Shown in pieces: positions 8,573 to 27,949 of a stretch of 43,608 bases of DNA. Source of the DNA: Paraspadella gotoi. Its lineage: Eukaryota > Animalia > Chaetognatha. The stretch spans positions 1,997,349 through 2,040,956 of the forward strand of contig CM119264.1 of NCBI GenBank assembly GCA_051294375.1, given 5' to 3'. The notes under the pieces are model-generated. The model saw only the letters and a program-made list of their open reading frames with translations, did not search any database and was not told the DNA's origin. A program made the position numbers and the translations under genes. The number at the start of each line of letters is the position of its first letter. Positions within the stretch are counted from its first letter, which is position 1.

Positions 8573-11500
8573 ATGGTAAGCTTTATGAATTCGATTTGTT
8601 TCGTTTTCGTTTTGTTGTGCTTGATATTAGTAAAGAAATAACTCCAGATAGCTTCTTATTATATAATCAATTAATCATATCTCCTTTTTTCGAGCCCAGA
8701 TTCGGTTTCCGAGTAAACTACTGGGTCAAATTTGATAACAATTTATATACGTAAAGCGTTCCTATGGTCATCCAAATGGAACTATCGTATCGAGTTGATG
8801 TTTGATGTTCAATCCCTGAGCCGAGATATGGGGGGGAATGGCCCAATTTTTTTTGTTATTACGATTTTTTTTGCAGGATCAGTTGCATTTATGTCTTAAT
8901 AATGAAAAAAATCATTTTATTTGTCTTCACTGTGATTTAACAATGAACAAATGAACAATGAAACAAGCCTTCTAGTTTTTTCCATCAGTTTCAAAACTAA
9001 TAAACATTCAGTAAACTAAATGTTTAATTGTTTATGGTGGACTAAAATCCACCAACCATTCATCAGCGGCCATTGGTGCCGGAGGCAAGTCATTCGCCTC
9101 CCAACCCAAAGGTTCGGGGATCTAGCCCGGTGGCCGCCGAGCAGTTAAGAGGGACGGGGCGCTTTATCTGCCTGTAACACGGTGTCACAGCCTGAGGGAC
9201 TGCTTATATTGAACAGTTCTGTCACTAACACATAATAATAATCACTGTCTCTTCATGTTTATGAAAATTGAGATAAAATATTGTTTTTGTTTATAAGAAG
9301 TAGTCTATGCAGCTATTTTTGCTAAAAAAAAAATTGTCACGAAATTTTTGACATATTTCTCCCTAACTTATATCTCGGCGAAGAGGTTGAATTTTAAAAT
9401 TCACCTCGATAGTTCTATTTATAATGGTTAAAATGATTTTAACTAAATATATTTATTTTAACGGTTAATTTTGGTTAATTTTCAATCATGATTTTTTCAA
9501 AATTTTTAAAATAAGTTTCGTCCGTGTGTTTGAGTCCGCTGCTTCAGGAGCCGCAGCAAGGGGGCATCGATGGAAAAAAGTGCCACAAAACTATAGTTAA
9601 AACTTTTTTGTTCTTTTTTATTATAGGCTTCTGCTTCATGGCCCAATAATACAGGCAAGTACATTTTTTACTTAAAACTTTTTCTTTAAAGTTTTTTTAG
9701 CCGGATCTGCTTATCAGCAGATGATAATTCTTTCAATTTGTGATCAAAACTAATCATAGCAGATCGTACCATACCAAACCAGTGGCTAAGCCAATACATG
9801 TAAATCGCTTGCAAAGGATTAAACTGATCTGTTACTTTGGTAAAAACAAATAATTTTTTTTAACTATCATTATTTTTTCACTTGCATAATTTTTTTAACT
9901 TGCATAATTTTTTCAACTCGCATAATTTTTTCAACTCGCATAATTTTTTTAACTGGCATAATTTTTTCAGCTTGCATCATTTTTTTCCATTCGCATAATT
10001 TTTCATTTCGCATAATTTTTTCTAATTCCATCATTTTTTTAGCTTTCTTCAATTTTTCAAATTGCATCAATTTTTCACTTTAATTAATTAATTAAAACAT
10101 TTTAGTAAGCTTTAGTAAGGAAAATTCAAGTCAACTTGACTTTGGTTTTTTTTATACTAACTCATTTCCACTCCTCGATTCCATCGAAATGTCATATCCT
10201 GCTCAATCACGCACTTAACTACCCAGACACAAAATTTCATCTCAATCTATCCATCCAATTATGATTAATTGGAGTAATTATGGGTTAAAATTAGTAAAAA
10301 GAATTTATTATCATTATTATTATCATTATCATCATTCGATGTTCTTACATGATTTAAGTGAATGAGCGACAAAATTGAGGTGGCGGACCGACGGACCGAC
10401 AAAGTGGATTATAATTATTATAACAAAAATTATGTCCGTCTGTGTAGTCTGTGTAGGTCCGTTTGTCTGTCCGTCCGTACCCCCTAAGCAATGAACGCCA
10501 ATTACTTATGAGTGGATGAGGCGATTTACTTGAAATTTTGTGTGTGAGTAAAGAAGTGTGTGATTGAGCTGGAAATCAAGTTTCGATAGAATCCTCCAAG
10601 TGGAAAGGAGTTTAAATGGAAAATATAAAAAAGCTGTTTCACTATTTGATTATGCTTTTTATTTCTGTATTAAATGTAAATGCAAACTGTAATAATTAAT
10701 TAATTAATCAATTGATTCATAAATTAATTAACTTTTTAATTAATTAATTAATTATCTGATCAGCTGCTTACCGTTAATGATCGTGGGCAGATCCGTTTGC
10801 TTTATTTAAGGTTATGCATTCAAGTATGGTGGACTAAAATCCACCAATCGTTCATCAGCGGCCATTGGTGCCGGAGGAAAGTCATTCGCCTCCCAACCCA
10901 AAGGTCCGGGGTTCTAGCCCGGTGGTCGTCTTAGAATTTCCGAGGGACCGGGCACTGAACCCGCCTGTAACACGGTGTTACAGCCTGATCCGAAGCTCAG
11001 GGACTGCTTATCTTGAACAGTTCTGTCACTAACGCATAACAATAATTACTGGCTCTTCATTGGTGAGCCCGCCTTCAGAACACAACAGCAACAACAACAC
11101 TTTCAATCGACATGCCTCAACTTGGTGACGCACTTTCCACCAACAACAACAATTCACTGAAGAGACGCAACAGCCTTCTCACTAACACATAACAATAATT
11201 ACTCTCTCTTCACAAGATTTGTAATTCATCATCGACAATTCATGAATTTCAGATTGTGAAATGAAATTTGTTAATTTAAAAATTTTTAATTCAAAATTCA
11301 TAATTAACAATCGTCAGTTGACGATCGTCAATTCATGATCATCAATTTAGACGACTATGGCCGCGATCAAGACGACTACGGCCGACGATTCGAGCGACCT
11401 TTTCGTCCCCGTTGGGTCACTTGATACTAACGACGTTTCTCTCTCTTTCTGACTCGTGCTCTCCTCTTTATAAGTCGACACCATTCAACCTTTCAACCTT

Positions 11501-11576
11501 CATTGTTATGTATTTTTCTCACGTTTTACATTGTAATAAATGTATATTATCATAAACATTGTCTCCTTGATCAATG

Positions 11577-11627
<51 letters not shown>

Positions 11628-12418
11628 AAGACATAATAAATCATAACAGATTTCTTAATAAATCAATAAGAGAATACATCAATCAATCCTTCAATCAACT
11701 GATCAATCCGCCAATCAATAATTCTAACTAAGGACGAACGGACGGACAGACTGACGGACATAATTTGTTTTTTTTTTGCATATTTTATCATGTTCTGACG
11801 TGATCTAAGTGTAAGATTGTGGGGGTGGACCGATGGACCGACAAAGTGGATTATACAGTCGGAACTTCTGATAAGCAGATCCGACTAAAAAGTTCCTTTT
11901 TAGATTTTTGATGTCGTTTGAATTTCATCGACTGAATCTTACTTTCTTCGCCAATAACGAGAGAACCAACAATACAAATGACGACTAATTACTGATAAAC
12001 CGGAACGTGACAACCGATTATTATCTCAATTTACTATTTTACAGAGGTTCAACTGAAAAACAGGAGCTCGGGCCTTCTGCTAACCAGCGAAAATGGAAAT
12101 ATCTCCACGAAGGAATTTAATTCAAACTTGGAGCAAAAATTTCATAAGAGGGAGATTTCAGAGGGCACTTACTACATTCTCGATCAGAAGGAAAATTACG
12201 TTACAAACTTTGATTGTAACGTCTATGCACAATCAGCGAAAGATAGCGACGACAAAAGCCAACAGTGGCGTTTGGAGGAAGTCAACGGTTACTTTCACAT
12301 TATATCTGAGGTGAACGGTCTTGTCATCACCTCGAATGACAATAGTAATTCCTGTCAAATGACGGAAAAAGATGAAGAGTCCTTCGAGCAGATGTTTTCC
12401 GTAATTCCTGTGGAATAA
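8573..12418 (+). CDS. Ricin-B / beta-trefoil lectin-like protein, ~134 aa; coding exons 8573-8575, 9627-9654, 12045-12418
   Basis: Splice signals: aaaATG|gtaag at 8573; tag|GCTTCT...ACAG|gcaagt (GC donor at 9655); ttttacag|AGGTT at 12045. Phases agree and give MASASWPNNTEVQLKNRSSGLLLTS...EQKF...SQQW...EQMFSVIPVE*, with three Q-x-F/W repeats. AATAAA at 12512. No signal peptide. Confidence 0.8.
9033..9255 (+). mobile_element. Solo LTR of tRNA-carrying TRIM, in lectin intron 1
   Basis: TATGGTGGACTAAAATCCACCA...CTCTTCA flanked by a 4-bp direct repeat TGTT (9029-9032 / 9256-9259). Confidence 0.9.
9692..10800 (+). mobile_element. DINE-1/Helentron-like non-autonomous repeat, in lectin intron 2
   Basis: T-run start, subterminal inverted repeats cggatctgc (9702) / gcagatccg (10787), internal gtccgtctgtccgtcc tetranucleotide repeats. 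Homologous copies occur elsewhere in the window. Confidence 0.6.
9870..10075 (+). repeat. 18-bp minisatellite (approx. cgcataattttttcaact)n
   Basis: About 11 degenerate units; explains the repetitive KIMxVE ORF on the minus strand. Confidence 0.9.
10825..11212 (+). mobile_element. TRIM copy: 5' LTR 10825-11059, PBS 11061-11073, short internal region; PPT and most of the 3' LTR deleted
   Basis: 4-bp TSD CAAG (10821-10824 / 11213-11216). The LTR ends ...CTCTTCA followed by t-TGGTGAGCCCGCC. The last ~33 bp of the LTR recur at ~11180-11212. Confidence 0.9.
10858..10929 (+). other. tRNA-like (Gly-CCC-resembling) cassette inside the LTR; same cassette in the other LTR copies
   Basis: Acceptor-like stem GCGGCCA/TGGTCGT (perfect TGGCCGC in the 9033 copy), A-box-like TGGTGCCGGAGG, TCGCCTCCCA anticodon-loop-like region, B-box-like GGTTC(T/A)AGCC. 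The anticodon stem does not pair, so it is not a functional tRNA. Confidence 0.75.
11730..11890 (-). mobile_element. 5' fragment of the DINE-1/Helentron-like repeat
   Basis: ggacggacagac repeats and ...gataagcagatccgactaaaa, the reverse complement of the 9692 element start. Confidence 0.55.
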
Positions 12419-12717
12419 GTGTGGTTTATTGTGTTCTGTGAAGTAGATATTGAAAAAATATTATCTGCAGAAAAAGTTTAGATTTTTTATTTTTAGATGA
12501 ATACAATTAAAAATAAATGTTTTCACTTATTTAGTAATGGACAATACAATAAGCTATACAATATTCTTTAACAACGAATGTAAGCTATTTCGATTTTTCT
12601 TTCTGTTTTGCACCAGATACAAGGTCCTTTTGTAAAAAAGTTTTAAAATTGTTCCTGAGACCATTCCGCACATTAAAACAATATTTTGCTTTTATTTGGG
12701 TACAGGTTGTTACACAA

Positions 12718-13246
12718 TAGAGTGGAGCTATCAAGAACAAAAATTGTATTTGAGTTAATTAAAAATGATAATTTTATTACATGTCTATTCATTATTAAAA
12801 CCCATTTTTTTTAAACAAAAAACAAACTTTGTTTTCTCTTCTACAACATGTTTCAAAAAATTTTAATGTCTTCAGCGTCAAAAACAGGAAATAAAGGTCA
12901 AAAAACTTCTGTTTTTCACTCTTTCTGGTAGATGATAAAACCTTTTATCATTTTACGTACCCTTAACATTAAAATTTCATTTAACATATTTTACAAAAGT
13001 TTTTTATTTTATTCTGACGAATCCAAATCCGTTCTTTAAATTAATTTTAAAAATCATTTTAGTAAACATTGTATAAATAATTTTTAAAATTGTATGTGCT
13101 TGTAAGGATATTACTTCAAAGGAAATATAATTAGCTCTACTGTTATGCTTAAAATTTTTTTAAAGGGCATGAATTTTTTGAATTACTTACATATAAATAG
13201 AAAAAAATATTATTAATTCGCTTTTTCTTTTCATCGCTCCACCGTA
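12718..13246 (-). mobile_element. hAT-type MITE
   Basis: TIRs TAGAGTGGAGC / GCTCCACCGTA with a perfect 8-bp TSD TTACACAA (12710-12717 / 13247-13254). Inverted homolog of 14689-15315. Confidence 0.9.
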
Positions 13247-13587
13247 TTACACAATAATTCCCAAAATATATGCAGGATCCTAAACTATAATGGTGAGCCG
13301 TGGCACCTTTAATTGTCAAATATAAAAATTGCTTAAGCTAAGCTATGTTATCAAGTTTTTTCTTTGTGATGATCTTTCAGTAGGGAACTTTAAAATTAGT
13401 TTAGGAATTTCACGGAGAGCTTGCTAATCAATCACGACTTTCTACTTTATATCTACATACCAATTCAGAGTACTAGCTGTGACTTGTAGTGAAAATTAAC
13501 TTGGAACAGAAGAGAGATGAATTGTACCTTAGATGACGGTAATTGGAGGTGAGGCATCTTTACTTCTCTGTCTCGGTTTGTGTCACT

Positions 13588-13628
13588 AGTCTCTTTGGTG
13601 GCCAGGGTTCGAATCCCACCACCCGCTA
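13588..13628 (+). pseudogene. 3' half of a tRNA-Leu-like sequence (variable arm plus T arm); tRNA or SINE relic
   Basis: AGTCTCTTTGGTGGCCAGGGTTCGAATCCCACC resembles the variable and T arms of eukaryotic tRNA-Leu; no 5' half is visible. Confidence 0.45.
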
Positions 13629-14632
13629 CCCGCTACCACCAGTCCACCACACTTAATAAAAGGGAGACAGATTGAATCAAAATCGAAAAGCAGTGGCTCT
13701 TTATACAATGAAATCGAAACAACGACACGTGTGAGGCGGCTAACTTGGCGAAATTATTTTGTTAGAAAATTGAGACAAGTTTTCCGTATTTTTTATCAAG
13801 ATGTAATCATTCGAAAATCATGAGCCAAATTAGAGAATAAAAAGTCAAAACAATGGTAAAACAATTCGCGGTCAAAACTATCGAAAGGCGAGAAAACAAT
13901 TGTATTGGTTTAGTGGCTCAATTAGGTTGACCCACTTAACGATCAAGTAGTTGATTCGTGATTGACACAATTTGTTCGTTGTTGTCGTCGTCGTCGTTGT
14001 TGTTGTTATCAGATGAGCTTCTACACAGGTGAGATTCGCCGGTGGATGGAAGCCTATTGTCTCATTTCTTTAATGAAGAATGTAGTTTTAGTTCTAATAA
14101 GTTGTATAAACAATCAATAGCAATATTGCATTAGAAAGAACAACCTAATCAATTTCTCTTTTTAATTTAAAAAAAATAACTTTTTAGTTTTAAATACTAC
14201 TTATTGAATAATCAGAGTAATTACAAGTAAAGTAATTAATTTTAAAAATAACAATTATATAACTTTTAAGCTATACTAAAGAAAATTTAATCAACATCAA
14301 CTTCCGGTCAATTGTGCGTGGGTCAAACGCAAAATCTGATTGACGACTCCTTGTTTATCCACTTAAAATTATACTAAAACCATTGTAAATTTTTCGACTG
14401 TATGGTGAGAAAAACGCAGTGTTCCTCCAACTCAATATTAATATTAATATTAATTGAATAACATTTCTATTTTTATCTCGCTAGACGGGCTTAAGCCCTC
14501 TGGTTAAACTCTGCAGGAAAAAAATGTGCTAGATAGCGCCCTAAATTATGCTAAAAATAGCTAGATTTTTTTTACTGTGCTAAATATCTTGTAATGCAAA
14601 ATTGTTAAGAGAGTAAAGAGAAATGAGCCTAT

Positions 14633-15918
14633 TGAAGAGACAGTGATTATTGTTATGTGTTAGTGACAGAACCGTTCAATATAAGCAGTAGGGTGGAGTG
14701 ATGAAAAGATTGAGTGATTGAACATTATTTTTTTGCTGCCTATGGACATATAATTAATGAATTTTAAATCCTTTTAAAAATTTTTTTAGCATAACAGTAT
14801 AGCAAATTCAATTATTTATGTAGTAATATCCTTATAAAATCGTTAAATTACAAAATAATTTTTTTTTATTTTGAAAAACTGATTTGGATTCGCGGTAAAA
14901 AACTAAGAAACTTTTATAAAATATATTATATGATATTTTAATGTTTAGATCACAAAAAATGACTAAAATGTTTTAACATATATATGTTTCTACTACAGAT
15001 AATAAAAAAGTCAAGAATATTTACCTTTTTTCTTATTTTAAACATTGAAGATGACAGATTTTTTGATAACATGTTTTATATTTTTGATTCAACTTTTTAT
15101 GAAGAATCTGAATCTTTATTAAAAGTTTTATAAAAATTTTTTTTAAAATTTACTATTTTATAAGGATATTACTACAAATATATATATTTTGCTATTCTGT
15201 TCCCGAGATAATATGAACGAAATATTTTTTGTACTAGTTAATCATACTATCTCACATCTAAATATCATTGTTCGATCATTCAAATAATTTTTTTGTTCTT
15301 GAGTGCTCCACTCTAATAAGCAGTCCCCGAGCTTCGGATCAGGCTGTAACACCATGTTACAGGCGGGTTAAGCGCCCCGTCCCTCTTAACTGCCAGACGA
15401 CCACCGGGCTAGAACCCCGGACCTTTGGGTTGGGAGGCGAATGACTTGCCTCCGGCACCAATGGCCGCTGATGAACGGTTGGTGGATTTTAGTCCACCAT
15501 ACATCCCCCCCTCCGTAGGGAGAAGTCTGTTGCGTCTCTTCAGTGAATTGTTGTTGTTGGTGGAAAGTTCGTCACCAAGTTGAGGCATGTCGCCTGATGT
15601 GTTGTGGCAGAAAGTGCATCGCCGGTTGAGCATGTCGCCTGAAAGTGTTGTTGTGGTGTTGTGTTCGGAAGGCGGGCTCACCAATGAAGAGACAGTAATT
15701 ATTGATAAGTGTTAATGACAGAACCGTTCAATATAAGCAGTCCCTGAGCTTCGGATCAGGCTGTAACACCATGTTACAGGCGGGTTAAGCGCCCCGTCCC
15801 TCTTAACTGCCAGACGACCACCGGGCTAGAACCCCGGACCTTTGGGTTGGGAGGCGAATGACTTGCCTCCGGCACCAATGGGCGCTGATGAACGGTTGGT
15901 GGATTTTAGTCCACCATA
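14633..15918 (-). mobile_element. Full-length TRIM: 5' LTR 15918-15685, PBS 15683-15671, internal region, PPT 15514-15504, 3' LTR 15501-14633 split by a hAT MITE
   Basis: Two nearly identical LTRs. On the element strand the PBS reads TGGTGAGCCCGCC and the PPT reads GGAGGGGGGGA. The flanks (ctat / aggt) do not form a TSD in this copy. Confidence 0.9.
14689..15315 (+). mobile_element. hAT-type MITE inserted in the TRIM 3' LTR
   Basis: TIRs TAGGGTGGAG / CTCCACTCTA and a perfect 8-bp TSD ATAAGCAG (14681-14688 / 15316-15323). Confidence 0.92.
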
Positions 15919-18141
15919 AGGTGTTTCGCAGCAGTAATTTTCAAACAGACCAACAATCAACTGACGCCATAGTGTCTTGCACTTGTAAAGTTGCTTTAAC
16001 TAGTATTACAGAAATACACAAGCATCTCAAATGAAAATCGGTATTAACCAAATATATTGACTTTATTGTATAAATGATAGCAATCCGGTATGGTAATTAA
16101 CTTGAGTGTTAAAATAAAGAAATAAATAATAAAATAAGCAAATAACATATTTAATACAAATTTATATTGCCAGAATAAGTGTTTTTTATACCTTGTCCAA
16201 TGCCGTAGATTGAAAAACCTTAATTTTTTTTCACATTTTGAATATGCCAGATTGTATGTTATATGCCAGAACATTTGTTATTAGCTAAATGGTCTGAAAT
16301 TATGCCTCTCTCCTTCTATTGCACAAATTTTGTTTACCATTTTTGAAATAAAATCGTTGTTGAAATAAAATTTCAAACTTTTTTTTAAATATTTACTACA
16401 CAACAAAAAGAAAGGACAATAAACAAAGTTTTTATATTTGTTATTTATTTATTTTATATTATGTTTCACCTCAGTTATTTTCTGTCTTTTTCCCTCTTAT
16501 TTTTTGACATTACTTAAGTTGTCCTCACACGTTCAGCCAAATTATTTACTAGTTATTTCGTCTGTCTTTTGTCATTCTTGTCCGAGTCGTAATTTGGCGA
16601 GACTCATGATCAATCTTTAGTTCGTTTTATGACTAAATCTTCATCTCTACTTTTCATTCATCATATACTTGAACACCTGATATCACGAGCGTGATATATA
16701 CCAAGTTATTTTGTATTGGCCTGCCTTGAATGACTATTAAAAATTTACTTTGGAAACTGTCAAGATTGCTAGTTGCACACTGATTTTCAATGAAAATAAT
16801 ATCTATAAAACAGACCTTATCCCTAAATTTTTGTGGGCTGAGATGAGTAAAAACAAGTCAGCACAAAGCTCTATGAAAGTTTTTAAAAAATGAGGTTTTG
16901 AAAAAATACATTCTGCGCTACTTATTTACCTCAGTGTAAGCAGAGGAGTGCAAAAGGAAATTATATCTCTAAACTCAAACTTTAACTTTTGATGCTTTTT
17001 AAAGATAGTGATTATGAGCTTCTATCTTTTTTAAAATTTAATAGCTATCATTGACATTTTTATTATAATTCAGTGTCTTCCTTTACTTTATTAGTGCATC
17101 CTATGTATTGAAATAAGATTCGAATACTAAGTTTTAATTGTATACCTTCTTTTTTTGCATTTATATTATCAAATAAGCTAAGTCTCTAAATTAACCGATT
17201 TTAACCGTTTACGGTTAAAAAAGTCGATTTTTAACGGTTAACCGACGTTGTAAAAAAATTAAGGAATTAAGGAAACATTACTCTTGGCGGGACGAAAAGG
17301 GCGCCTCGCCCGACGGATGGCGCAGCACGCGATCGTTCTCGTGATCGTCGTCGTCGTCGTCGTCTTCGAAGCAGCGAGGAGGAAGATATGATATTGAAAG
17401 AAAGTTTTAATTGATTGGCTGAATGAATGTATGATTGATCGTTTGGTTGATTGATTCATTGTTGGTTGATTTATCGATTTATGACTCTTGATCAAACGAT
17501 TTCATTAATGATTTAGCGATGTAGACATCGAGTGTTATTGTTCATTGTTCAATGTTCTTTCAAAATCATTTTTCAATTCTATTTAATTGTGTGTTCTCAT
17601 CATCACAGTGACTGCGAGATTTCAATTTATCCGCATGATTATTATAAAACAATTTGTTATACAGTACATTATCAGTAATATTTATAAAATTTATGAAATA
17701 ATGACGTCTTTCAAACCTAGAAAATTGTCACTTTTCAATCACGTAAATGAAAACATTATATATTAATCTTTAATATTCAGGACAAAGAAACATAATTTTT
17801 TTCTAATAACAAGAGTCAAACAATATACATCATACATAGATGCAATATACTTGTAGCAAATATATATATTTTGTTATCAAAATGCTGTTGTCGACAACGA
17901 AATTTTGCATTTTGTTTACGATGTAAATCAAGAACCTCTGAAGCCGTGATGCCCATTGGGGTAACGCTTGGGATGGTGAGTTCCCCCTCTGGGCCAATGT
18001 GATTCGCTGAACGATGGTGGATGTGAGGCGGCGTGAATATACCGCCACAATAGTCACAATAATCACATCGACCGGCCCCGTCTACAATGCCCATTTGTTT
18101 TTCCTCGCCTCTATATTCGCCAGAGGGAGGAGGACGAGTCC

Positions 18142-21100
18142 CTACGCAAATGCGTAGACCTCGATCTCGCAAAGAATAAACCTGATCCACTTGATGGGTT
18201 CGACCTCCAACTTGATCGAGTCGCCCAGTATTCCCTTTCCTCCGCAGCTCAACGCCATCTTGTCAGGATGCTTCTGGAAGAACGCGGGGTCGTCGACGCT
18301 GCCGCAGTCGCTGCAGTAAAGACGGCAGGGTCGCGGCAGAACTGTGGCAATCTCCTCCTTTCATTTTTTTTAAATTGCCACATTTTAGTATCCCTTTTTA
18401 GTTGCGCGAGTACTCGCGGAGCAACTCTGTAAGTCACTTTTTGGTCGGTCCGTCGGTCGGTCGGTACGTTTGTCCGTCGGTCTGTCTCATTTATATTAAT
18501 AAAAGACGATATTTTGATGCAGTGCATGTCATAAATACACGGGCAAAGAAAGCTTTTTAATCATGTCATTTCACGTCATATCATGTGATCAAAAGGAAAT
18601 GCATGTGAAAATAAAGTCACTGCGGCACAACACATTGGAATTATCGTTCTTGGGTTAATAAGATTTAATTACAAAAATATTTATCTTTTCTTATTTTTTT
18701 AAAAGTTATCTTACTATTGTTTTCTATAAGATGGCCGGGACCCGCTATGTTATTATGAATGCCTTGAACCACCATAGCCTGTCAGGGGCAAGTCATTCGC
18801 CTCCCAACCCAAAGGTCCGGGGTTCAAGCCCGGTGGTCGTCTAGCAGTTAAGAGGGACGGGGCGCTTAACCCGCCTGTAACATGGTGTTACAGCCTGATC
18901 AGAAGCTCAGGGACTGCTTATATTGAACGGTTCTGTCACTAACACATAACAATAATTACTGTCAGTTCAATATCATCTAAAAGCTAAGAGAGAGTGCTAT
19001 ACAAATATTTATTCTTATTTTAAAAATCATTAAGAGTTTTAGAGTAATGATTTTTTAAATTTAGTCTCGATATAGGGTCCCACCCCTGTATAATAAATTT
19101 TTTGTCAACAGAGTTTTTTTTTAGACCGACAGCTCTGCCGCACCCTATTTTTTTGTTTCCGCTAAGAATCGTGGCCGAAACTCCGGACATTTTTTTGTAC
19201 TTGAGGACAATCCATCTCACTGTCACAATAGTGGAAGAAAAATATATTGGTTAAATAAAAAAATGTAAATATGTATGCATTAGTGATGAAATCTCTCAAT
19301 TATGGATAGTTAAAAACTTTTAATTTTAATCAATTTAATCTACTTATTTTGATGGCTTTAGGATTTCAGATAAGGGTTCTCAGTATAACCTTTCTACGGG
19401 TAAGTTTAATCCGTTACAGTTGACTAAGTAATTGAGAATGGTTTGCGAGAGTAACAATTTTCTCGTTTATCAGTAAATTACTTACGAATAATTTCATTTA
19501 AAATCAGAGAGGATATTTCTATTTTAGTTCCCCATTACCTGCAACTCGTTTCGAAAGAGGAATTTCTATGGTGTATTTCGTGGCAATGATTGCATCTACG
19601 CAGGTGTCCACTGTTCCGTCTGTCAGACGCCGTAAAATTTCTGGTGGAAGTTTTATACCTGTTCTCCCATTTATAAAGTTAGATCTGATTTTTGCTGATA
19701 AGGCGAGGTTTTTTTGAGCTGAAGATAAGTGAGAAAAAGAGAGATAAAAAAAATTTAATGAAAATTCTTAACAGCGCTTCTACAGTGAAGAGTATTATAT
19801 ATTGACTAGATGATTTACCTTCACATTTTTCACCGACCCAGGCGGTCCCAGGCTTACAAATGCATTCTTTGCCATCCTTCCTCATAGAAGCGTGGCATTC
19901 TTTTACGCAAAACATTCCATCCTTTGAATATATTTTTTTATTTTTGCACTTTTTGCAACGGCCAAGATCGTTAGCTTCGTGACAACCGACGCATTCTTCG
20001 TGACAATTCAACTCGCATCGTCCTTTGATCAAAATCAAACCTTGGCCGCACTCGTTCACCACACGAACGTCGCTCACGCTGATCTTCCTTTCGCCGGCTC
20101 CGAAAGTGAAGTAGATCGAATTGAACTTCATGGGCTTGGGAAAAGTGAAAGAGGACAGCACGACGCCCACCTCCTTCTCTTCCGGGGCTTTCCCGTAATC
20201 TATTCTCAATCTTCCATTCGGTTTTGAGAAGCAGACGAAAAATCCCGAGAAGAGATTTTCTTCGCCGAGAGTCGCACTGAGCGGACTCTCGGACACCCTC
20301 ATCGTTCTCATAGCACTGTAGAACGACACTCCCGTGGGCGAAATGCGAATGTAATTCCAGGTCTTGTAATCCTGCGGAATACCCGCGGATATGAGGTAAA
20401 TATTGCCCATGGACGCTCCCTGAAAGTATATACAGGACCTTTTTCCTCCGATCTGTAATCTATGGCTGTTCGTCCATTTGAGTTTGCAGGGAACGAAACC
20501 NNNNNNNNNNNNNNNNNNNNNNNNNNNNNNNNNNNNNNNNNNNNNNNNNNNNNNNNNNNNNNNNNNNNNNNNNNNNNNNNNNNNNNNNNNNNNNNNNNNN
20601 NNNNNNNNNNNNNNNNNNNNNNNNNNNNNNNNNNNNNNNNNNNNNNNNNNNNNNNNNNNNNNNNNNNNNNNNNNNNNNNNNNNNNNNNNNNNNNNNNNNN
20701 NNNNNNNNNNNNNNNNNNNNNNNNNNNNNNNNNNNNNNNNNNNNNNNNNNNNNNNNNNNNNNNNNNNNNNNNNNNNNNNNNNNNNNNNNNNNNNNNNNNN
20801 NNNNNNNNNNNNNNNNNNNNNNNNNNNNNNNNNNNNNNNNNNNNNNNNNNNNNNNNNNNNNNNNNNNNNNNNNNNNNNNNNNNNNNNNNNNNNNNNNNNN
20901 NNNNNNNNNNNNNNNNNNNNNNNNNNNNNNNNNNNNNNNNNNNNNNNNNNNNAAGAGAGAGATTCAATCAGCACGCACTATAGACGTGAGAGGCGGTAAA
21001 TCCAGAAATTGCCCGCCGCCATAACCGGATTTTCTAGCTCCTCAGTTTTAGAAGAGTTGTTCACTCAGTGGCTTGATAGCATCGTGACAACGTCAGAACC

Positions 21101-25700: not shown

Positions 25701-27949
25701 ATATATATCTTATCATGTAGAAGCGCTGTTAAGAATTCATTAAATTTTTTTTATCTTCTCTTTTCTCACTTATCTTCAGCTCAAAAAACCTCGCCTTATC
25801 AGCAAAATCAGATCTAACTTATAAATGGGAGAACAGGTATAAACACTTCCACCAAAATTTTACGGGGTCTGACAGACGGAACAGTGGAGACCTGCGTAGA
25901 TTGCATCATGCCAAGAAATACACCATAGAAATTCCTCTTCGAAAAACGAGTTGCAGTAATGGAAACTAAAATAGAAATATCTGATTTTAAATGAATTATT
26001 TGTATAGTAATTTACTGATAAACGAGAAAATTGTTACTACTCTCAAACATTCTCAATTACTTAGTCAACTGTAAACGATTAAACTTACCGTAGAAAGGTT
26101 ATACTGAGACCTTATCTGAAATCTAAAGCCAATCAAAATAAGTAGATTAAAAAATTGATTAAAATTAAAGTTTTTAACTACTCCATAATTGAGAGATTCA
26201 TCACTAATGCATACATATTTACATTTTTTATTCTAACAATATATTTTTCTTCCACTATATGTGACAGTGAGGATGGGATTGTCCTCAAGTACAAAAAATG
26301 TCCGGAGTTTCGGCCACGATTCGGCGGACAACAAAAAAATAGGGTGCGGCAGAGCTGTCGGTCTAAAAAAAACTCTCTTTGAAAAAAATTTATTATACAG
26401 GGGTGGGACCCTATATCGAGACTAAATTTAAAAAATCATACTCTAAAATCTTAATGATTTTAAATTTTTAGATGATATATTAATTTTTTTGAATTCTTTG
26501 AAATTAGGCTTTTTGATGCAGCAAACTGCTCGGTTTAAAACATTTAAAAAAAATTAGTTTGTTTTATTGTATATAAAAGTAAAAACCCCAAAAAAACTTT
26601 TGCACTAATTTTATTATTGTGTATTAAATTGTTCAGACAGCAGACGTAAGTTTGTCTCGATATAGGTCCCACCCTGTATAATCCGAATTTTAAAAGATTA
26701 TTTTTAAAGTATACGTAGCATCCGTCTAGAATTTTCTGAGACGGCAAGCTCTGTAACTCGATACAAATGATAATTTAAAGAGAGCTTTTGTCTGATATCG
26801 AGTTACACATATGGCTACTCCCCCTTCGGTACGCCATTGCTCTACGACCAATTTGGACATCAAACTATTTAAAAGTAGCTTCGCCAGATTGAACCTGAAC
26901 CTTTTACGTAGGTTGAAATCCAGCCGCTAAGCACTCGGCCAAATTATTTTCCTAAAAAAATTGTACAAATAAATTATATAAGAGTAGGCTCGCTTTTAAT
27001 TTTTTTGGGAAACAAAAAATTCAACGTTCGAAGGCAGAGATTCGACATCCGAGTCCCAAGTTTCCCGATTTGTGACGGAACGTCGCAACACGACGACGAT
27101 TATTACAAGATAGCGATATCTGACTTATTTTTAATGTTTGAAATTGAGAAAAGTCAGAGGCAGTTGCCTCGTTAAGCCGTGACGTCGAATGTTTTCACGT
27201 TGCTTTTAAGTGTTTTATTAAGTTTTTTAACCAGTTGCTTATGTGACAACTGAAATGTTTTATACTCGTCACCTATTGTATAATATTAATAAACTAGATT
27301 GAGAAATGAAAGAATGAAATCGTTTTGAAAAAATAATTAATAGTTTTCATTTGCATAAAACAAGTTTGAGCAAACGATGTCTGATCTACCTACAATATTA
27401 AGCGGTAATAAGCTATACGATGATATTCTTGGTAATGTTTTCTGATTTTCAATTTGTGATTTAACAGATCATAAATGTTACATTTTTAAGGATTTTAAAT
27501 ACATCTTGCCAACATATATCCAGCCAGCACTTACTGTAAATAAATCTAATAGTACAGATACAAATGTAATATTAGACATTAATATAATATCAGAAAACAA
27601 AAATCTTACTCTTTCAGTCTATGATAAAAGGATTCCTTTTCTTTTGAAGTAGTTAATTACCCATATATTGTACAGTGTATTCCTAGAAGCAGCACTCGGT
27701 GTATTTATAGCAATTAATCAGATATGCAAGAATATGTTCGTGTTTACGATTTTTCATCGAGAGCAATAAATTAAGCAAAAAACTACAAAGTCAGGGATAT
27801 TTATTTAGACTTAAGAAAAATGGGAATTAATTTTTCAGTAATTATAGAACTAATAAAAAATATATGTTACTGAGTTAATCTATTTTCAAAAAAGATTATA
27901 CATGATGTTCTAGTAAAATAATAAGGAAAAAATTACAAATTATACACTA

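What the first reader, a model, noticed from the sequence alone, without database searches (positions are those of the whole stretch)
9033..18969. Miniature LTR retrotransposon whose LTRs carry a tRNA-like Pol III cassette
Seen: four copies within 10 kb (solo LTR 9033-9255, TSD TGTT; partly deleted copy 10825-11212, TSD CAAG; full LTR-PBS-internal-PPT-LTR copy 14633-15918; truncated LTR 18787-18969). The intact element is about 650 bp with no gag or pol. Each ~235-bp LTR contains a 72-nt tRNA-like segment with A/B-box-like motifs. It looks like a SINE at first, but the PBS, PPT, paired LTRs and fixed-length TSDs indicate an LTR mechanism. Established: plant Cassandra TRIMs carry 5S rRNA in their LTRs, and I recall tRNA-carrying TRIMs with 4-bp TSDs in animals being named Helenus. 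Inference: this is a Pol III-transcribed non-autonomous family of that type, mobilised by a Gypsy-like partner and probably undescribed in this lineage.
Basis: partly seen in the sequence, partly recalled or inferred. Interest (0 to 1): 0.8.

Follow-up and report, generated by a model that had tools for sequence, protein, structure and literature searches.

The report
tRNA-bearing miniature LTR retrotransposon (Helenus-type)
This is a real, much-repeated, gene-less jumping element of about 650 bases whose two end repeats each carry a decayed tRNA look-alike that likely serves as its promoter; the type was described in 2024 as Helenus, so this is a new family of a known kind, with one odd extra, a second predicted tRNA-shaped fold in each repeat.

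Summary
Confirmed with corrections. The family has 234-nt LTRs (TA...CA), a 183-nt internal part with a tRNA-Trp-like PBS and a PPT, and no coding capacity (651 bp). Two of three two-ended copies have 4-bp TSDs. The 'full' copy has none, carries a 627-bp hAT-like MITE in its 3' LTR, and is probably a recombinant. Public contigs end sharply at both LTR termini with heterogeneous flanks, which argues against a SINE. The tRNA-like unit (LTR nt 34-106) fails Rfam, but a tRNA covariance model built without it ranks all five LTR copies first in the window. B box and acceptor stem are intact; A box, D arm and anticodon stem are decayed. This fits Helenus/TRIMp3 (PMC10886601), with no sequence match to the published families. 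Pol III transcription and the Gypsy partner are inferred, not shown. The host lineage was not determined. Not seen in the Helenus paper: no T4 terminator, and a second predicted tRNA-shaped four-way fold (nt 108-183) in 3 of 5 LTRs. This scan noted Helenus-type elements before on other DNA, none sequence-similar.

The parts
9033..9255 (+). Solo LTR with an 11-nt internal deletion; 4-bp duplication TGTT at 9029-9032 and 9256-9259; B box mutated
10825..11059 (+). 5' LTR of the internally deleted copy; 4-bp duplication CAAG at 10821-10824 and 11213-11216
10858..10930 (+). tRNA-like unit (LTR nt 34-106): A-box-like 10866-10877, B box 10910-10920, 7-bp acceptor stem, broken D and anticodon stems, CCC in the anticodon position
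11060..11178 (+). PBS (11060-11073) and shortened internal region; the PPT and most of the 3' LTR are deleted
11179..11212 (+). Last 34 nt of the 3' LTR
15685..15918 (-). 5' LTR (234 nt) of the two-LTR copy; 5' flank ACCT; tRNA-like unit 15885-15813
15736..15811 (-). Second, predicted tRNA-shaped four-way fold (LTR nt 108-183); also at 15394-15319 (-) and 18843-18918 (+); broken in the 9033 and 10825 copies; not tRNA-like in sequence
15671..15684 (-). PBS, one base after the LTR end; 12 of 14 letters equal to the tRNA-Trp-type PBS printed in Fig. S2 of PMC10886601
   Evidence: majority letter at 15672 makes it 13 of 14
15534..15542 (-). Internal 9-nt complement of the LTR 3' end, predicted to pair with it and to close a stem over the PBS
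15502..15514 (-). Polypurine tract (11 nt) plus a TG dinucleotide before the 3' LTR
15316..15501 (-). First 186 nt of the 3' LTR (2 differences from the 5' LTR)
14689..15315 (.). 627-bp non-coding element with 10-bp terminal inverted repeats and an 8-bp duplication (15316-15323, 14681-14688), hAT-like by recalled criteria, inserted into the 3' LTR
   Evidence: loose ends at 14689 and 15315 in run X9
14633..14680 (-). Last 48 nt of the 3' LTR; 3' flank ATAG does not match the 5' flank
18787..18969 (+). LTR lacking the standard first 51 nt; the low-copy sequence upstream (18768-18786) completes a better tRNA fold than the standard head

Best explanation
[quoted passage not shown] SHOWN: paired LTRs, PBS, PPT, fixed termini in many contigs, 4-bp duplications in two copies, and a tRNA-like unit with an intact B box. 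INFERRED cycle: TFIIIC would bind the A/B boxes and Pol III would start near LTR nt 34. The sense strand has no run of four T, so the polymerase would read through the internal part and the whole 3' LTR and stop at the first T-run in the flank (29-71 nt downstream in the four loci). R would then be about 200 nt. A host tRNA-Trp would prime at the PBS, the PPT would prime the plus strand, and strand transfer would restore the 33 nt upstream of the start. The partner's integrase would trim the TG beside the PPT and insert with a 4-bp duplication. Later LTR-LTR recombination would give solo LTRs and the non-matching 'full' copy.
For: Anatomy. Fixed ends with unlike flanks: in X1, 116 contigs leave at the 5' terminus and 78 + 72 at the 3' terminus, flank agreement 0.41-0.43, with the same termini in X5 and X9. 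In one search, 127 X1 contigs continue into the standard 5' part and 145 into the standard 3' end. tRNA origin: a CM from 64 tRNAs chosen without regard to the LTR ranks the five LTR copies 1-5 of 12 hits in the window, full length. A profile HMM is reached by 0 of 1000 shuffles for four copies and 24 of 1000 for the solo LTR. The B-box pattern has 5 matches in the window against 0.86 expected, 4 of them in LTRs. Two common variants in the acceptor stem (18837, 18840) turn G-U into G-C pairs. The match to the published definition and sizes.
Against: Rfam finds no tRNA in intact LTRs and ARAGORN none at default. The A box lacks the TRGCY and YGG that most Helenus LTRs have. The only two-LTR copy has no TSD. 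The absence of T4 is not significant given composition (47% of shuffles also lack it). A TATA-like and a poly(A)-signal-like word near LTR nt 183 and 217 would also suit Pol II. No autonomous partner lies in the window, and no host tRNA-Trp was available to verify the PBS.
Confidence: 0.74

Rival explanations
1. An ordinary Pol II-driven TRIM in which the tRNA-like piece is a relic of an old SINE or tRNA insertion in U3, no longer used as a promoter.
For: Weak A box and broken cloverleaf. TATA-like word at LTR nt 183 and AATAAT at nt 217 sit where a short-R LTR would have them. There is no Pol III terminator.
Against: The B box shows no variant at 5% or more in X1 and X9 apart from the locus's own letter at 18826, and it is exact in 4 of 5 LTRs. 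The TATA and poly(A) words are non-canonical. The element is short, as in other TRIMp3.
Confidence: 0.15
2. A two-module LTR: the first unit is the Pol III promoter, and the second, tRNA-shaped fold would be cut by RNase P or RNase Z in both LTRs. That would give a unit-length RNA without R that must circularise or dimerise, as retrozyme RNA does after hammerhead cleavage.
For: A strict cloverleaf descriptor matches LTR nt 108-183 in 3 of 5 copies and 0 of 3000 shuffles, while detecting 44 of 64 real tRNAs. Fold z -2.1. None of the six variants at 5% or more in this unit breaks a core stem. No terminator is present. Two published Helenus LTRs with the same Trp-type PBS show, by eye, a hammerhead core at the same relative place. 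Retrozyme precedent: PMC4918200 passages.
Against: The descriptor's tolerances were set after seeing the fold (three parameters sit at its limits), and it has one unrelated hit in the window. The fold is broken in both copies that have TSDs. Most variants are CpG transitions, so they say little about selection. No ribozyme or tRNA family matches it. In the 18787 copy the closing stem has pairing probability of only about 0.24.
Confidence: 0.07
3. A tRNA-derived SINE (or a DNA MITE) whose tandem or nearby copies only look like LTRs.
For: tRNA-like head, high copy number, many single units, one copy without the standard 5' part, one without TSD.
Against: Copies begin 33 nt upstream of the tRNA-like start, which target-primed copying of a Pol III transcript would not retain (established mechanism). 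The 3' ends are sharp, with no common tail. A PBS and a PPT sit exactly at the junctions, the internal part exists in other contigs, including organisms B and C, and the ends are not inverted repeats.
Confidence: 0.04

Closest known systems
Helenus (TRIMp3), Kojima 2024, PMC10886601 (main text read whole; supplement parts 1, 5, 6, 7, 9, 10, 11 of 11 read, all parts searched by motif)
   Same: Non-coding TRIM under 1 kb (published 311-1263 bp), tRNA-derived sequence in each LTR with the B box kept and the tRNA fold decayed, PBS, PPT, 4-bp TSD as in animal families, solo LTRs. PBS of the Trp type, as in Helenus-2_SyJa and Gypsy-32_NVi. Short spacers between PPT and LTR.
   Different: None of six LTR/PBS motifs occurs in the published consensus file. 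The LTR starts with TA, where most but not all published ones start with TG. The A box is weaker. The tRNA unit sits near the 5' end with about 130 nt after it; by eye, most published LTRs that I read have it in the 3' half followed by a T-run, though the fish families also lack the T-run. It has a second predicted four-way fold.
Cassandra and Ajax (5S rRNA-bearing TRIMs; PMC10886601, passages of PMC7215508)
   Same: Small-RNA-derived Pol III-type promoter inside the LTR of a non-autonomous element.
   Different: 5S rather than tRNA origin. Cassandra terminates inside the 3' LTR with an 18-nt R, whereas this family has no T4. Ajax makes 5-bp TSDs.
Plant retrozymes (PMC4918200, passages)
   Same: Non-autonomous LTR element with a structured RNA module in each LTR and Ty3-gypsy-like PBS, PPT and LTR ends.
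   Different: No hammerhead or other Rfam ribozyme here; no circular RNA shown.

Membership tests
Helenus / TRIMp3 | Two LTRs around a short non-coding internal part, total under about 1 kb | tested here: met
   234 + 183 + 234 = 651 bp. The only stop-to-stop frame of 100 codons over the element has no Pfam match above cut-off.
Helenus / TRIMp3 | tRNA-derived sequence inside each LTR | tested here: met
   Own CM and HMM rank the LTR copies first. ARAGORN at 85% threshold calls pseudo-tRNA-Gly(CCC) in 2 intact LTRs, against 21 of 1000 shuffles. Not met at Rfam level.
Helenus / TRIMp3 | B box (GGTTC) conserved | tested here: met
   Exact in 4 of 5 LTRs.
Helenus / TRIMp3 | A box (TRGCY and YGG in most families) | tested here: inconclusive
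   TGGTG...AGG at LTR nt 42-53 fits the general A-box pattern (recalled) with one mismatch, but not the two words reported for most Helenus.
Helenus / TRIMp3 | PBS complementary to a host tRNA 3' end | tested here: inconclusive
   Right position. 12 of 14 letters (13 of 14 in most contigs) equal the Trp-type PBS in Fig. S2. The host's own tRNA set was not available.
Helenus / TRIMp3 | PPT before the 3' LTR | tested here: met
   11 purines plus TG.
Helenus / TRIMp3 | Fixed-length TSD (4 bp in animals, 5 bp in fungi and plants) | tested here: met
   4 bp in 2 of 3 two-ended copies, p 8e-5; absent in the third. A genome-wide table was not possible.
Helenus / TRIMp3 | tRNA-like unit is not the element's own primer | tested here: met
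   Its 3' end matches the PBS complement at 5 of 10; the best duplex is reached by 251 of 2000 shuffles.
Helenus / TRIMp3 | Transcription by RNA polymerase III (shown only for Cassandra) | not testable with these tools
   Only contigs were available; no listed holder is on record as RNA.
Helenus / TRIMp3 | Autonomous Gypsy partner sharing the PBS | not testable with these tools
   No genome held; none in the window.
tRNA-derived SINE | 5' end at the tRNA start | tested here: not met
   The 5' end lies 33 nt upstream of the tRNA-like unit in the window copies and in over 100 contigs of X1.
tRNA-derived SINE | Poly(A) or simple-repeat tail, variable-length TSD | tested here: not met
   Sharp 3' end with heterogeneous flanks; both TSDs seen are 4 bp.
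Retrozyme | Self-cleaving ribozyme in the LTR | tested here: not met
   No Rfam ribozyme family at E<=10 on either LTR scanned.

The most novel reading that the evidence does not exclude
The LTR is a two-module RNA machine: a deliberately unfolded tRNA copy that only recruits Pol III, followed by a sequence-unrelated tRNA mimic that host RNase P/Z cuts in both LTRs in place of a terminator. It would be a retrozyme-like route run by host tRNA-processing enzymes, with the hammerhead-bearing wasp Helenus-2 families as the ribozyme version of the same design.
Probability: 0.07. Interest if true: 0.75.

Novelty: new member of a known kind. Interest (0 to 1): 0.33.

Why it matters
As it stands, it adds an abundant and fairly young Helenus-type family in a host whose genes find no relatives in a 5.8-billion-protein search. 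That probably extends the range of Pol III-type TRIMs to another lineage. Pol III transcription has never been shown for any Helenus according to PMC10886601, and a high-copy family with a sharp predicted start is a convenient test case. How such elements end their RNA without cutting off the transcript in the 5' LTR is open. This family (no terminator, second fold) and the apparent hammerhead in two published families make that question testable.

Tried and rejected
No genome is held, so no genome-wide TSD table or partner search. A metagenome scan with a 20-nt LTR word gave one hit, L001, a chance match inside a bacterial gene. Distant blastn against phages gave only 28-nt matches at E 7. 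A masked LTR motif found 98 loci in viral contigs, 93 of them ARAGORN tRNAs of 11 types and 5 cut by contig ends. I discount this because I chose the masked positions knowing tRNA anatomy; searches are the unbiased repeat. Rfam's 19.7-bit tRNA hit depends on low-copy flank. Self-priming was rejected. Known ribozymes in the LTR were rejected. The lack of T4 is not significant against shuffles. ARAGORN at 80% is too permissive (23 calls in the window, 102 of 1000 shuffles), and its mitochondrial mode gave nothing useful. Similarity of 18700-18786 to the LTR was at best 10 of 1000 shuffles among 8 comparisons, not significant. Host lineage: three homolog searches on two proteins found nothing, the exact look-up found 0 of 3, Atlas hits were leads only, and the representative search did not complete. 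No RNA holder was listed; run X9 is only guessed to be RNA. Organisms B and C and the biofilm run hold only 1-2 low-depth contigs each, which could be contamination, so no host-range claim is made. Summed contig depth was not converted to a copy number. Searches for prior description: six paper searches; among the listings, only PMC10886601 describes tRNA-bearing TRIMs as its subject. Repbase, Dfam and subscription journals were not searchable.
Full report
Observation. The window holds five LTR copies at four loci between 9033 and 18969, and none elsewhere. They are 89-97% identical. The LTR is 234 nt and runs TA...CA. The two-LTR copy on the minus strand reads LTR 15918-15685, one base, PBS, internal part (183 nt in all), an 11-nt purine tract, TG, and a 3' LTR starting at 15501. 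That 3' LTR is interrupted after 186 nt by a 627-bp element with 10-bp inverted ends and an 8-bp duplication, hAT-like by recalled criteria. Both of its ends show up as loose ends in run X9, and a diverged relative lies at 12842-13246. Without it the element is 651 bp. The solo LTR at 9033 and the deleted copy at 10825 each have a different 4-bp duplication; the two-LTR copy has none (2 of 3; chance 8e-5). Its LTR tail is also more diverged from its own 5' LTR than the rest (4 of 48 against 2 of 186, p 0.017), so I infer that it is a recombinant of two insertions. An assembly join cannot be excluded, because the window beyond 19 kb is full of error-rich inverted duplicates.

Family behaviour. 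No genome is held, so I laid public contigs on the element. Twelve of 14 listed runs hold part of it, nine of them, all organism A, at half or more of the words. In X1, X5 and X9 contigs leave the reference sharply at the LTR's first and last base: in X1, 116 at the 5' end and 78 + 72 at the 3' end, with flank agreement of only about 0.43. Only the best-supported rows were shown, and 1248 more were not. The second laying showed 127 X1 contigs continuing into the standard 5' part upstream of 18787 and 145 continuing into the standard 3' end. So this is a dispersed family with at least a hundred distinct junctions per end and no common tail. In X1, 44 contigs match three further bases, ATA, and 27 match ATAT, against 2-3% and 1% expected from composition. 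This hints at an ATAT-type target preference, but the denominators are incomplete. Contigs cannot pair the two flanks of a copy, so TSD length rests on the two window copies.

Is the tRNA likeness real? Standard tools say no. ARAGORN finds nothing, Rfam finds no tRNA on two intact LTRs at E<=10, and its one weak hit uses flank. I therefore collected tRNAs by a generic D-arm motif unrelated to the LTR, kept 64 of 132 distinct ones (at most six per amino acid), and built an HMM and a CM. The HMM matches the anticodon-to-T-arm part; 0 of 1000 shuffles reach the score for four copies and 24 of 1000 for the solo LTR. The CM, without filters, ranks the five LTR copies 1 to 5 of 12 hits in 43.6 kb, aligned over the whole model, at 16.7 bits (E about 7e-4, rough) for 10858-10931. 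A real tRNA would pass 29 bits in Rfam. The B-box pattern has 5 matches against 0.86 expected, four in LTRs. The acceptor stem pairs 7 of 7 in the best copies, and two common variants turn its G-U pairs into G-C. The D arm and anticodon stem are broken, and the A box is weak. The unit is a decayed tRNA derivative with CCC in the anticodon position, not a working tRNA. The training tRNAs come from viral contigs, so the source isotype cannot be named. The unit is predicted to fold into a different three-way structure (z -1.8 to -3.5).

PBS and partner. The PBS equals the Trp-type PBS printed for Gypsy-32_NVi and Helenus-2_SyJa at 12 of 14 letters. Nearly all contig depth carries the other letter at 15672, and an organism C contig does too, giving 13 of 14. 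The tRNA-like unit cannot be the primer. A 9-nt internal stretch is predicted to pair with the LTR end and to bury the PBS in a stem. A 4-bp TSD and a Trp PBS point to Gypsy by the pattern reported for animal Helenus; no partner was seen.

Mechanism. The sense strand has no T4 from LTR nt 34 to the end of the 3' LTR. Only 9 of 191 window tiles of 417 nt lack T4, but 47% of composition-matched shuffles do, so this fits read-through without proving it. The first T4 lies 29-71 nt beyond each copy. I therefore infer Pol III initiation near nt 34, run-off termination in the flank, a long R, tRNA-Trp priming and integration by a Gypsy-type integrase. The 33 nt upstream of the predicted start are present in all complete copies, which LTR strand transfer explains and SINE copying does not. 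The main rival is Pol II transcription with a relic tRNA piece.

An extra feature. Directly behind the tRNA-like unit, nt 108-183 can form a four-way junction with tRNA dimensions: a 7-bp closing stem, a 17-nt middle hairpin, and a 5-bp arm stacked on the closing stem. A descriptor finds it in 3 of 5 LTRs, 0 of 3000 shuffles, one unrelated place in the window and 44 of 64 control tRNAs. The descriptor was tuned after I saw the fold, and the fold is broken in the two copies with TSDs. It has no tRNA sequence similarity. While reading the supplement I noticed that the two published families with the same Trp PBS have their tRNA part early in the LTR, followed by what looks by eye like a type III hammerhead. 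The paper's text mentions hammerheads only in a reference title. That suggests, without showing, that some TRIMp3 LTRs carry an end-processing module. I give this reading 7%.

Comparison and novelty. Helenus (PMC10886601; main text read whole; supplement parts; parts 2-4 and 8 only searched) is defined by this anatomy and covers fungi, six animal phyla and one plant. No defining feature tested here failed, two are inconclusive, and two cannot be tested. None of six motifs from this element occurs in the published consensus file, so it is a separate family. The host is a eukaryote of about 36% G+C, with a ricin-type lectin domain gene (E 6e-10) and weak leads to methyltransferase-FA and F5/8 domains. 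It is probably an animal, but two proteins found no homologs, so the lineage is undetermined and 'new lineage' is likely but unproven. Earlier notes of this scan report Helenus-type elements in at least 18 other genomes (unchecked), none similar in sequence and none on a second cloverleaf. PMC7215508 and PMC4918200 were read as passages only; other papers were seen as listings only.

Verdict. Real, correctly read by the first stage apart from details, and a new member of a known kind. Interest 0.33.

Noticed in passing
PMC10886601 supplement, Helenus-2_SyJa-LTR and Helenus-2_SyUm-LTR: By eye both consensus LTRs contain a complete type III hammerhead ribozyme (core, three stems, a 12-bp loop-loop complement) downstream of the tRNA-like part; the paper's text does not mention it. 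These would be Helenus-retrozyme hybrids. Not run through any tool.
   Followed up: partly
window 18730-18786: Low-copy sequence upstream of the 'truncated' LTR completes a better tRNA fold than the standard head (top CM and ARAGORN score). If the copy began at 18730 its flanks would be ATAA / ATAT. It may be a rare variant LTR with a different 5' module rather than a truncation. Unexplained.
   Followed up: partly
window 14689-15315 and 12842-13246: High-copy 627-bp hAT-like MITE family inserted in the LTR, with a diverged partial copy 1.4 kb away.
   Followed up: yes
window 10864-10873 (LTR nt 40-49): The A-box-like stretch also reads like an LTR end followed by the first letters of the His-type PBS printed in Fig. 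S2; probably coincidence.
   Followed up: no
window 13540-13680 (+) and about 26860-26950 (-): Further tRNA-like pieces unrelated to the LTR: a perfect B box at 13606-13616 and a SINE-head-like stretch (weak).
   Followed up: no
window 19020-43250: Long inverted duplicates at 78-92% identity with many small indels and short N gaps, probably uncorrected long-read or amplification artefacts; gene models there are unreliable.
   Followed up: partly
window 27400-27900 (+): By eye, a broken remnant resembling the end of a Penelope-type reverse transcriptase (recalled motif); two short pieces gave no Pfam support.
   Followed up: partly
window 12044-12418 (+), 18145-18360 (-), 19679-20500 (-): Exons for a ricin-type lectin domain, an F5/8-like domain end and a cysteine-rich membrane protein; the two that were searched found no homologs among 5.8 billion proteins.
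   Followed up: partly
window 15672 and the matching site 11072: Both window copies carry the rare letter in the PBS where nearly all contig depth has the other, suggesting a shared local sub-lineage or a different individual.
   Followed up: no
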